A DNA stretch of 42,580 nucleotides from a virus (lineage: Duplodnaviria > Heunggongvirae > Uroviricota > Caudoviricetes). The translations under genes and the position numbers were made by a program. Within the stretch, counting starts at the first letter, position 1; each line of letters begins with the position of its first letter. The stretch is taken from the IMG/VR virus record IMGVR_UViG_2917393062_000002, positions 1 through 42,580 of that record; one strand, 5' to 3'. Below are positions 3,519 to 4,184 of this stretch, piece after piece. The notes beneath the pieces are model-generated. The model was not told where the DNA came from, did not search any database, and was given only the letters and a program-made list of their open reading frames with translations.

Positions 3519-3856
3519 ATGGTTTTCGCGAAAAGTGGTGTGAATTCGCATATAACCACTGTTTTGTTGCTTGTACAGGCAGGCAACACTCAACAGGGTT
3601 AAGATTACTTAATTCTCCGCAAATTTCAAGAAATTATTAGCTTTTCCTAATATCGCGAGTTGTGTAAAATGCAACTTGTTGAGAACGTTACTGTTATCAG
3701 AACAGGTGCTGAAACGGATTTTCCCCGGTGAAACAGGTGGTGCTGTCAGGGCTCTAACCTGGAAGATGGCAAGCAACACTCAACAGAAGCACGAATTGAC
3801 TTTGGGGAAATGTCAGAGCCAGTCAATTCTGCCACTTCCTTACGTAAGGAAAACGG

Positions 3857-3937
3857 ATGATGGACGCCCGACACCTGATTAAACAGGTAATCGAGATCAT
3901 CATTGCTGTTTTACAGCTGATCCTGTTGTTCTTGTAA
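3857..3937 (+). CDS. Candidate small hydrophobic peptide (26 aa), possible type I toxin
   Basis: ATGATG start 6 nt after AAGGAAA; peptide MMDARHLIKQVIEIIIAVLQLILLFL; GC-rich hairpin at 3957..3985; not in the >=60-aa ORF track. Confidence 0.3.
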   Translation: MMDARHLIKQVIEIIIAVLQLILLFL

Positions 3938-4184
3938 TAGCGGGAAACGTAACTAAGGCGCGTCCAGTTTACCGACTGGCGCGCCTTTAACATATCCGGA
4001 GATTATCCGCTCAGCATTTTTTGCTTTAACAGATCAAGTTTTAGCCGATTCAGCCATTAAACCGACCTTCGTTTGTTGATAAGCGGGTATACCTGACTAG
4101 AATCGATTCACTTAAGTAGCGCGCAGGGATAAGAGGGATGGACCCTGAGAAGGGGAGAGCTATTTATCTGGAAGGATTCTGAAG

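What the first reader, a model, noticed from the sequence alone, without database searches (positions are those of the whole stretch)
3520..3990. Possible type I toxin-antitoxin-like locus in a 700-bp 'intergenic' gap
No >=60-aa gene explains 3480..4180. The region holds a 26-aa hydrophobic peptide ORF (3857..3937, MMDARHLIKQVIEIIIAVLQLILLFL) with a well-placed RBS, reminiscent of TisB/Ldr/Hok-class membrane toxins. It is followed by a strong GC hairpin (3957..3985). A 19-bp direct repeat GGCA(G/A)GCAACACTCAACAG occurs at 3578..3596 and 3768..3786. The overlapping 68-aa track ORF (3676..3882) may be spurious.
Basis: inference. Interest (0 to 1): 0.5.

Follow-up and report, generated by a model that had tools for sequence, protein, structure and literature searches.

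The report
Prophage copy of ShoB/OhsC toxin-antitoxin

Summary
All the described features are present. The 26-aa ORF (3857-3937) is 81% identical to E. coli ShoB. The mRNA region 3801-3990 is about 78% identical to chromosomal shoB in 5421 of 5426 E. coli genomes. GenBank already names the peptide 'small toxic protein shoB' (Escherichia sp. E4930).

The 19-bp direct repeat is the key functional element. The upstream copy (3578-3596) lies at the 5' end of a predicted, divergently transcribed OhsC-like small RNA (about 3594 to 3484, minus strand). The downstream copy (3768-3786) is that RNA's target in the toxin 5' UTR, 70 nt before the ATG. E. coli shoB/ohsC has the same repeat geometry with a different sequence.

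Across the related loci, the two copies change together through at least 10 unrelated pairing sequences. Twenty of the 22 differences between copies give G.U wobbles in the RNA duplex. Predicted cognate duplexes are -33 to -47 kcal/mol against about -19.5 for non-cognate pairs. The toxin mRNA fold is supported by covariation. The 68-aa ORF is not conserved.

The 637-bp cassette sits between an antirepressor gene and rem, where related E. coli prophages carry hokD.

Verdict: a new, prophage-borne member of a known family with its own pairing sequence. Expression and toxicity are untested.

The parts
3475..4111 (.). Whole cassette: the 637 bp that replace the hokD cassette of a related E. coli prophage, between the ORF6N antirepressor gene and rem.
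   Evidence: In blastn of the window against L001, homology stops at 3474 and resumes at 4112. L001 carries hokD in this slot.
3483..3518 (.). Bidirectional intrinsic terminator. It ends the antirepressor gene on the + strand and the OhsC-like sRNA on the - strand.
   Evidence: A perfect 13-nt inverted repeat flanked by A and T runs. Its loop and stem resemble the OhsC terminator, which gives weak Rfam ohsC_RNA hits of 17.6 and 21.7 bits.
3484..3594 (-). Predicted OhsC-like antitoxin sRNA of about 111 nt. Its 5' end is placed by analogy with E. coli OhsC.
   Evidence: It has the position and orientation of Rfam-verified OhsC in L002. The fold is -37.9 kcal/mol, z = -5.2. Homologous loci give sRNAs of 67-113 nt with the same layout. 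Expression has not been shown.
3578..3596 (-). Antitoxin pairing element: the upstream copy of the 19-bp repeat, which forms the 5' end of the sRNA.
   Evidence: It co-varies with the UTR copy across loci.
3602..3629 (-). Predicted antitoxin promoter: -35 TTGAAA (3629-3624), 16-nt spacer, -10 TAATCT (3607-3602).
   Evidence: Both boxes are conserved in position across the phage-type loci and are analogous to the E. coli ohsC promoter TTGTAA/CATAAT (PMC11264685). The site is below the simple scanner's threshold.
3641..3670 (+). Predicted toxin promoter: -10 TAAAAT at 3665-3670 with a weak -35 region around 3641-3647.
   Evidence: TAAAAT is the reported E. coli shoB -10 (PMC11264685). TAAAAT, TAGAAT, TAATAT or TAAACT is conserved at this position in the homologues.
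3677..3992 (+). Predicted shoB-like toxin mRNA of about 316 nt. E. coli shoB full length is about 320 nt.
   Evidence: Alignment and consensus structure, fold z = -3.7, and the transcript size reported in PMC5397157.
3677..3700 (+). 5' leader segment that can pair with the target site in the primary transcript. It is proposed to keep the unprocessed mRNA inactive.
   Evidence: The minimum-free-energy fold pairs 3677-3683 with 3778-3784. The leader/target duplex is -17.8 kcal/mol and is the best among non-cognate targets. This is suggestive only.
3723..3749 (+). Conserved UTR motif CCCCGGTGAAACAGGTGGTGCTGTCA (3723-3748), which contains hairpin H5 (3728-3736 / 3743-3749).
   Evidence: It occurs once in the window, with 0 expected by chance. 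It retrieved all related loci. Helix 5 shows GC-to-AU compensatory changes.
3768..3786 (+). Antitoxin target site in the 5' UTR (downstream repeat copy), ending 70 nt before the ATG. It is a possible ribosome standby site.
   Evidence: In the consensus structure it lies mostly in an unpaired stretch, 3770-3791.
3792..3830 (+). Conserved stem H6 (3792-3805 / 3819-3830).
   Evidence: Of its 12 pairs, 8 show compensatory changes and 93.8% of cells are paired.
3837..3850 (+). Hairpin that sequesters the RBS (TCCTT ACGT AAGGA). The RBS AAGGAA is at 3846-3851.
   Evidence: Helix 7 is 100% paired in all 12 sequences and has a UA-to-CG compensatory pair.
3857..3937 (+). shoB-like toxin gene encoding the 26-aa hydrophobic peptide MMDARHLIKQVIEIIIAVLQLILLFL.
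   Evidence: The peptide is 81% identical to E. coli ShoB and is named 'small toxic protein shoB' in GenBank as TGB68899.1 and TGB69103.1.
3922..3944 (+). Conserved hairpin spanning the stop codon (H9).
   Evidence: Of its 9 pairs, 7 show compensatory changes.
3955..3987 (+).
   Evidence: Helix 10 is 98.3% paired.

Best explanation
The region 3475-4111 is a self-contained type I toxin-antitoxin cassette of the shoB/ohsC family. It sits in the nin region of a lambdoid prophage of Escherichia sp. E4930.

Proposed mechanism:
- A weak promoter (-10 at 3665-3670) gives an mRNA of about 316 nt. Its structured 5' UTR of about 180 nt hides the RBS in a hairpin.
- In the primary transcript the UTR probably also hides an upstream single-stranded site (3768-3786) by pairing it with the mRNA's own 5' end.
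- By analogy with shoB, tisB and zorO, 5' processing would expose that site and allow translation of the 26-aa hydrophobic peptide. That peptide would insert into the inner membrane and depolarise it.
- A divergent promoter (3602-3629, minus strand) would make an OhsC-like sRNA of about 111 nt. Its first 17-19 nt pair with 3768-3786 and would block toxin synthesis.
- The pairing sequence differs from that of chromosomal shoB/ohsC, so the prophage pair should be insulated from the host pair.

Shown here: homology of the toxin and mRNA, covariation of the pairing elements, and the conserved RNA fold. Inferred: transcription, processing, the standby mechanism, toxicity, and any benefit to the prophage.
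For: - Homology: blastn gives about 78% identity of 3801-3990 to chromosomal shoB in 5421 of 5426 E. coli genomes, and the best hit extends back to 3714. The peptide is 21/26 identical to ShoB. GenBank names it shoB.
- Architecture: in E. coli L002, Rfam-verified OhsC (106.8 bits) lies divergently upstream of shoB. A 23-nt direct repeat links the OhsC 5' end to the UTR, ending 71 nt before the ATG. The window has the same geometry, with its repeat ending 70 nt before the ATG.
- Covariation of the pairing elements: 18 distinct pairs of copies fall into at least 10 unrelated pairing sequences across all loci that were long enough to analyse.
- RNA-level signature: 20 of the 22 differences between copies give G.U wobbles in the predicted duplex. 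This argues for RNA-RNA pairing rather than a DNA-level repeat.
- Specificity: cognate duplexes are -32.6 to -46.5 kcal/mol, against a non-cognate mean of -19.5. E. coli OhsC against the window UTR gives -19.1.
- mRNA structure: of 64 consensus pairs, 93.9% of cells are paired, against 29-44% when partners are slid. Thirty-three pairs show compensatory changes, and 0 of 500 shuffles reach the observed values.
- Promoters: the boxes are conserved in position and match those reported for E. coli (PMC11264685).
- Literature: OhsC pairs through 19 nt at its 5' end (PMC3919570). shoB has a 320-nt form and a 280-nt form, and only the processed form is translated (PMC5397157). ShoB overproduction depolarises the membrane (PMC5397157, citing Fozo 2008).
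- Cassette context: it replaces hokD in the same slot of a related prophage.
Against: - There is no expression or toxicity data for this locus.
- The window's duplex contains a true C.A mismatch (3582/3772), giving 14 + 4 bp (12 + 4 if the sRNA starts at the predicted G at 3594) rather than 19 continuous bp. It is one of only two non-wobble differences among the 22 and could weaken repression.
- The Rfam ohsC_RNA model scores only 17.6 bits on the correct strand, against a gathering score of 50.
- Neither promoter passed the simple sigma-70 scanner.
- NCBIfam and Pfam have no hit for the peptide.
- The leader/target pairing idea is only moderately supported: the cognate target is the best one in 6 of 12 rows.
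Confidence: 0.85

Rival explanations
1. The cassette is a decaying, non-functional remnant of a shoB/ohsC module, a pseudo-TA that is no longer expressed or no longer regulated.
For: There is a C.A mismatch in the middle of the predicted duplex. The promoters are weak and undetected by the consensus scanner. Type I loci on chromosomes are known to decay, as described for hok copies in PMC11264685.
Against: - Every element is intact and in register with the functional E. coli locus: ORF, RBS, RBS hairpin, target, both terminators and both -10 boxes.
- The window sequence obeys the covariation-supported fold.
- A near-identical copy exists on an independent viral contig, L005.
- A 12-14 bp duplex at the sRNA 5' end remains, at -32.6 kcal/mol.
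Confidence: 0.1
2. The 19-bp direct repeat is a DNA-level element, such as paired binding sites for a regulatory protein or recombination scars. The hydrophobic ORF would then be regulated in some other way.
For: Direct repeats flanking a promoter region can be operators. A separate inverted repeat, TTAGC..GCTAA, does lie between the promoters.
Against: - The repeat sequence differs completely between homologous loci, yet the two copies always match each other. A protein site would be expected to be conserved.
- Differences between the copies are strongly biased towards changes that keep G.U pairing in an RNA duplex of the inferred polarity: 20 of 22.
- The upstream copy always abuts a -10-like box, so that it forms the 5' end of a terminated sRNA.
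Confidence: 0.03
3. The real gene of the gap is the 68-aa ORF (3676-3882) or one of the minus-strand ORFs of 56 aa (3609-3779, 3823-3993). The 26-aa ORF would then be incidental.
For: These ORFs exist.
Against: - None of them is conserved as an open frame across the homologous loci, whereas the 26-28-aa ORF is present in every locus long enough to analyse.
- The 68-aa ORF has no Pfam or NCBIfam hit.
- The alignment has indels that are not multiples of three in the UTR.
Confidence: 0.02

Closest known systems
ShoB/OhsC type I toxin-antitoxin system of E. coli (chromosomal, acpS-yfhL intergenic region; Rfam RF02495 for OhsC)
   Same: - The toxin is 26 aa and 81% identical.
- The RBS is the same (AAGGAA) and so is the -10 box (TAAAAT).
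- The mRNA is homologous, about 320 nt long, with a conserved fold.
- The sRNA is divergent and non-overlapping, and its 5' 19 nt pair with the UTR about 70 nt before the ATG.
- The terminators are homologous.
   Different: - The cassette is carried in a prophage nin region, not at the core chromosomal locus.
- The pairing sequence is unrelated (GGCAAGCAACACUCAACAG against GUGCAGCAUGCACCCUCAAUAAC), so cross-regulation is not expected.
- The predicted sRNA is longer, about 111 nt against 77 nt, with an extra middle hairpin, and fails the Rfam threshold.
- The repeat copies are 190 bp apart, against 248 bp.
TisB/IstR-1 and ZorO/OrzO (divergent type I systems with standby-site control)
   Same: - The gene arrangement is the same.
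- The sRNA 5' end pairs far upstream of a sequestered RBS.
- The primary transcript is predicted to be inactive because its 5' end masks the target (PMC4147584, PMC5397157).
   Different: - No sequence homology was detected. Rfam OrzO-P scores 20 bits against a gathering score of 60.
- A related phage module (L018) hits only shoB in E. coli genomes, not zor.
- No LexA-type control was looked for.
HokD/SokD (relF) cassette of Qin-like E. coli prophages
   Same: It occupies exactly the same slot, between the ORF6N antirepressor gene and rem, in a related prophage. It is also a type I membrane toxin cassette.
   Different: - The toxin is unrelated: about 51 aa, of the Hok family.
- The antisense RNA overlaps the mRNA leader and a mok-type reading frame, rather than being a divergent trans-acting sRNA (established knowledge of hok/sok).

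Membership tests
ShoB/OhsC type I TA | Small (about 26 aa) hydrophobic toxin homologous to ShoB | tested here: met
   The peptide is 21/26 identical to ShoB, E = 6e-13 pairwise. DNA identity to shoB is about 78%. GenBank names it 'small toxic protein shoB'. NCBIfam and Pfam returned no family for the peptide.
ShoB/OhsC type I TA | sRNA gene divergent from and upstream of the toxin gene, not overlapping it, with its own promoter and terminator | tested here: met
   On the minus strand there is a terminator at 3483-3518 and -10/-35-like boxes at 3602-3629. Their positions match Rfam-verified OhsC in L002 and are conserved in 11 loci. This is sequence evidence only.
ShoB/OhsC type I TA | The 5' end of the sRNA has about 19 nt of complementarity to the toxin 5' UTR, far from the RBS | tested here: met
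   The 19-nt elements lie at 3578-3596 and 3768-3786, 70 nt before the ATG. The duplex is -32.6 kcal/mol with one C.A mismatch. The two elements co-vary across loci. The 19 nt of complementarity is reported in PMC3919570.
ShoB/OhsC type I TA | Toxin mRNA of about 320 nt with a long structured 5' UTR and a sequestered RBS | tested here: met
   The predicted mRNA is 316 nt. The consensus structure has 93.9% of cells paired and 33 compensatory pairs. The RBS hairpin is 100% paired.
ShoB/OhsC type I TA | The antitoxin matches the Rfam ohsC_RNA covariance model (RF02495) at its gathering score | tested here: not met
   The score is 17.6 bits on the minus strand (3483-3556), against a gathering score of 50. 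The match rests mainly on the terminator. The 5' pairing region and spacer have diverged. This lowers the claim that the sRNA is OhsC as Rfam defines it, not the claim that it works like OhsC.
ShoB/OhsC type I TA | Toxin overproduction is toxic and depolarises the membrane, and the sRNA represses it | not testable with these tools
   This needs experiments. It has been reported for E. coli ShoB (PMC5397157, citing Fozo 2008).
Hok/Sok type I TA | Hok-family toxin of about 50 aa with an overlapping mok frame and a cis-antisense Sok RNA | tested here: not met
   The toxin is 26 aa and ShoB-like. hokD is present only in the related prophage L001, not in the window.
Zor/Orz type I TA | OrzO/P sRNA (Rfam RF02083) and a ZorO-type toxin | tested here: not met
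   OrzO-P scores 20 bits against a gathering score of 60. The related module L018 finds only shoB in 5426 E. coli genomes.

The most novel reading that the evidence does not exclude
shoB/ohsC may not be a vertically inherited Escherichia/Shigella invention, as proposed in 2010. It may instead be one domesticated member of a mobile, phage-borne cassette family in Enterobacteriaceae.

The supporting observations are:
- The mRNA scaffold is conserved across the family.
- The 17-23-nt sRNA/target 'address' is rapidly re-coded, with at least 10 orthogonal pairing sequences.
- The toxin itself can be swapped: a second peptide class, MIELLTIIKLVIDIIAAILQLIEQFN-like, sits on the same scaffold.

On this reading, re-addressing lets a prophage copy coexist with the host copy without cross-repression. 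The cassette would compete with hok/sok for the same moron slot, perhaps for prophage retention or phage exclusion.
Probability: 0.35. Interest if true: 0.6.

Novelty: new member of a known kind. Interest (0 to 1): 0.4.

Why it matters
[quoted passage not shown] This locus and its relatives show the family on lambdoid prophages of a cryptic Escherichia lineage and on other viral contigs, and the same toxin peptides are recorded in Salmonella enterica. I found no description of this in the searchable literature and no copy among 50,697 deposited phage genomes.
- Natural genetics: the set of naturally co-varying sRNA/target pairs works as a mutational experiment. It supports the still-unproven OhsC-shoB pairing model. 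PMC11264685 notes that pairing sufficiency has not yet been shown for shoB-ohsC.
- Tools: the same set offers ready-made orthogonal repressor/target pairs.
- Annotation: the antitoxin is missed by Rfam, so records for such loci carry an orphan toxin.

Tried and rejected
- Rfam at gathering thresholds found nothing in 3480-4180. With permissive E-values only sub-threshold, terminator-driven hits appeared: Thr_leader, ohsC_RNA, RNAI and OrzO-P.
- NCBIfam and Pfam gave no hit for the peptide or the 68-aa ORF.
- Megablast against E. coli genomes and against phages matched only the flanks. Distant blastn and tblastn against GenBank phages found nothing. tblastn against plasmids hit only mislabelled chromosomes carrying ordinary shoB.
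- A peptide-pattern scan of one genome per species recovered only chromosomal shoB of Escherichia and Shigella.
- The metagenome scan with the UTR motif gave 90 loci. Nearly all were ordinary E. coli shoB and added little phage-type diversity.
- I tried to link the second toxin class to ZorO using a ZorO sequence recalled from memory. It gave no match, so the sequence may be misremembered. Nucleotide search of the L018 module hit only shoB. I therefore dropped the ZorO link.
- The simple promoter/terminator scanner found neither promoter and neither terminator. The terminator loops exceed its 8-nt limit, and the antitoxin -10 box has fewer than 4 of 6 matches.
- The 2008 primary paper (PMC2597788) is not held, so its results are cited through later papers.

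Full report
**Observation**

The sequence features are all real.
- The ORF at 3857-3937 encodes MMDARHLIKQVIEIIIAVLQLILLFL.
- It is preceded by AAGGAA at 3846-3851.
- It is followed by a GC-rich hairpin at about 3955-3987.
- The 19-bp direct repeat lies at 3578-3596 and 3768-3786 with one mismatch. None of 100 shuffles of the window gave two matches, even allowing three mismatches.
- The 68-aa ORF at 3676-3882 has no family hit. It is not kept open in homologous loci, so it is spurious.

**Identity**

- Sensitive blastn of 3500-4020 against 5,426 complete E. coli genomes matched 5,421 of them. All listed matches lie on the chromosomal gene annotated 'type I toxin-antitoxin system toxin ShoB', at about 78% identity over 3801-3990. 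The best hit extends back to 3714.
- The peptide is 21/26 identical to E. coli ShoB.
- The window is the start of contig PDHZ01000026.1 of Escherichia sp. E4930, assembly GCA_004745115.1.
- GenBank already names this peptide 'small toxic protein shoB' (TGB68899.1 and TGB69103.1). It gives the same name to related peptides from Salmonella enterica.
- The toxin is therefore already recognised, and the family is known.

**The repeat explained**

In an E. coli reference locus (L002), Rfam finds OhsC at 106.8 bits, divergently upstream of shoB. That locus has its own direct repeat, GTGCAGCATGCACCCTCAA(C/T)AAC. One copy forms the 5' end of OhsC. The other lies in the shoB 5' UTR and ends 71 nt before the ATG.

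The antitoxin is transcribed from the opposite strand. An sRNA/mRNA complementarity therefore appears as a direct repeat on one DNA strand. The window's repeat has the same geometry, with the UTR copy ending 70 nt before the ATG, but an unrelated sequence. The literature states that the OhsC 5' end has 19 nt of complementarity to the shoB 5' UTR (PMC3919570).

**Related loci and covariation**

- A conserved UTR motif, CCCCNNTGAAACNRGTGGTGNYGTCA, occurs once in the window. It retrieved 12 viral contigs and 90 metagenome contigs.
- All 93 loci long enough to analyse have a hydrophobic ORF of 26-28 aa at a fixed distance from the motif.
- Every one of these loci, plus viral locus L015 (too close to its contig end for and analysed), also has a direct repeat of 17-24 nt with the same geometry.
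- There are 18 distinct pairs of copies, falling into at least 10 unrelated pairing sequences.
- Of the 22 positions where the two copies differ, 20 give G.U wobbles in the predicted RNA duplex of the inferred polarity. Only 2 are true mismatches.
- That asymmetry is a signature of RNA-RNA pairing, not of a DNA-level repeat. The window's own difference (3582/3772) is one of the two true mismatches, a C.A pair. It leaves 14 + 4 base pairs, or 12 + 4 if the sRNA starts at the predicted G at 3594.
- RNAduplex energies are -32.6 to -46.5 kcal/mol for cognate pairs, against a non-cognate mean of -19.5.
- E. coli OhsC against the window UTR gives -19.1, and the window sRNA against the E. coli UTR gives -23.2. 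The prophage pair should therefore be insulated from the chromosomal pair.

**mRNA structure**

I aligned twelve diverse toxin mRNAs (A2). They give a consensus structure of 64 pairs, with 93.9% of cells paired, against 29-44% when partners are slid by 1-3 columns. Thirty-three pairs show compensatory changes, and 0 of 500 shuffles reach the observed values.

In window coordinates the main elements are:
- a hairpin at 3728-3749 inside the conserved motif;
- a long stem at 3792-3830;
- an RBS-sequestering hairpin at 3837-3850;
- a hairpin across the stop codon at 3922-3944;
- the 3' hairpin at 3955-3987.

The antitoxin target lies mostly in the unpaired stretch 3770-3791.

In the single-sequence fold of the full transcript, the 5' end (3677-3683) pairs with the target (3778-3784). 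Leader/target duplexes are on average stronger for cognate than for non-cognate combinations, -20.3 against -14.9 kcal/mol. The cognate target is the best one in only 6 of 12 cases, so this is suggestive only. It does fit published data: shoB has a 320-nt form and a 5'-processed 280-nt form, and only the processed form is translated. A standby-site mechanism like that of tisB and zorO has been proposed for it (PMC5397157, PMC4147584).

**Transcription signals**

- The toxin -10 box TAAAAT (3665-3670) is the box reported for E. coli shoB (PMC11264685). A -10-like hexamer is conserved at that position in all homologues.
- On the minus strand, TTGAAA (3629-3624) and TAATCT (3607-3602) are conserved in position. 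They would start the sRNA at about 3594-3596.
- The perfect 13-nt inverted repeat at 3483-3518 would terminate the sRNA.
- The predicted sRNA of about 111 nt folds well, z = -5.2. It is longer than the 77-nt OhsC because of an extra middle hairpin.
- It scores only 17.6 bits against Rfam ohsC_RNA, whose gathering score is 50, so standard annotation misses it.
- Neither promoter reaches the simple scanner's threshold. Transcription is therefore inferred, not shown.

**Context**

- The window is a lambdoid prophage. The gene order around the cassette is lambda P-like, DUF977, DUF4014, isrK and C4 RNAs, ORF6N antirepressor, cassette, Rem, DUF968, RusA, Q.
- Against a related E. coli prophage, homology stops exactly at the antirepressor stop codon (3474) and resumes at 4112. 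In between, the E. coli prophage carries the hokD type I toxin cassette. One type I cassette has thus replaced another in the same slot.
- Other family members lie beside antirepressor-like genes or in nin-region-like neighbourhoods of other viral contigs.
- None of 5,426 complete E. coli genomes has the full phage-type module.
- None of 50,697 deposited phage genomes has a detectable copy.
- One-genome-per-species representatives carry only the chromosomal type, in Escherichia and Shigella.

**Comparison with what is known, and novelty**

This is a member of the ShoB/OhsC family by toxin homology, mRNA homology and architecture. It fails one formal criterion, the Rfam OhsC model.

It differs from the described system in three ways: it is prophage-borne, it has a different pairing sequence, and its sRNA is longer.

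[quoted passage not shown] The 2024 E. coli-wide survey found no extra or plasmid copies of shoB/ohsC (PMC11264685). My literature searches found no description of phage-borne shoB. That library does not cover most subscription journals.

I rate the finding as a new member of a known kind. It has moderate interest for the natural covariation data and for showing that the family is mobile.

**Limits**

No expression, processing, toxicity or repression data exist for this locus. The transcript ends are predictions by analogy. The biological role in the prophage (retention, exclusion, or an effect during induction when read-through from the early operon would oppose antitoxin transcription) is speculation.

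Noticed in passing
window 2695-2772 (+) and 2796-2880 (+): Rfam finds isrK (77.7 bits) and C4 antisense RNA (75.6 bits) just upstream of the ORF6N antirepressor gene at 2935-3474. This looks like a P1/P7 immI-like antirepressor control module.
   Followed up: no
window 3475-4111 versus L001 2576-3319: There is a clean cassette exchange. The related E. coli prophage has a 744-bp hokD cassette where the window has the 637-bp shoB-like cassette, with break points at the antirepressor stop codon and about 70 bp upstream of rem.
   Followed up: yes
L013 about 5142-5222, L018 about 6354-6434, L019 (reverse strand), toxin ORFs: A second toxin class sits on the same shoB-type mRNA scaffold with its own co-varying antitoxin repeat: MITILTIIKLVIEIIVAVMRLITETK, MIEVLTIIKLVIEIITAILRLIGQLN and MIELLTIIKLVIDIIAAILQLIEQFN. 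Nucleotide search of the L018 module hits only shoB in E. coli, at about 67% identity. Three of these four peptide lookups found no exact match in the protein collection, and the one found carries no name.
   Followed up: partly
E. coli-type loci among L021-L100 (for example L021): Chromosomal E. coli shoB/ohsC has at least two allelic pairing sequences: GTGCAGCATGCACCCTCAA... and GTGCAGCAC(A/T)CGATTCCAA. Both copies change together, and the second allele goes with ShoB ...LQLLLLFL. [quoted passage not shown]
   Followed up: partly
window 3636-3651; L019 and L015 equivalents: An inverted repeat, TTAGC..GCTAA, lies between the two divergent promoters and overlaps the toxin -35 region. It is perfect in L019 (TTAGCCACTGGCTAA) and weak in the window (ATTAG/CTAAT). 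It could be an operator for an unknown regulator. The CpxR-type boxes described for E. coli were not looked for.
   Followed up: no
window 4076-4103 (+): This is the only site that passes the sigma-70 scanner in 3400-4200: TTGATA-16-TAGAAT, 10 of 12 matches. It lies upstream of the rem-like gene at 4185-4445.
   Followed up: no
window 7373-7445 and 7452-7523 (+): Two adjacent tRNA genes lie inside the prophage late-regulatory region.
   Followed up: no
GenBank accessions TGB68899.1 and TGB69103.1: Two protein accessions with the TGB prefix carry the identical 26-aa peptide. This suggests a second copy of the cassette elsewhere in the E4930 genome. It could not be located because the contig look-up needs a protein of at least 30 aa.
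   Followed up: no
L001 about 3150-3230: A tandem repeat (TGTTTGTAT)n lies downstream of the hokD cassette in the related E. coli prophage.
   Followed up: no
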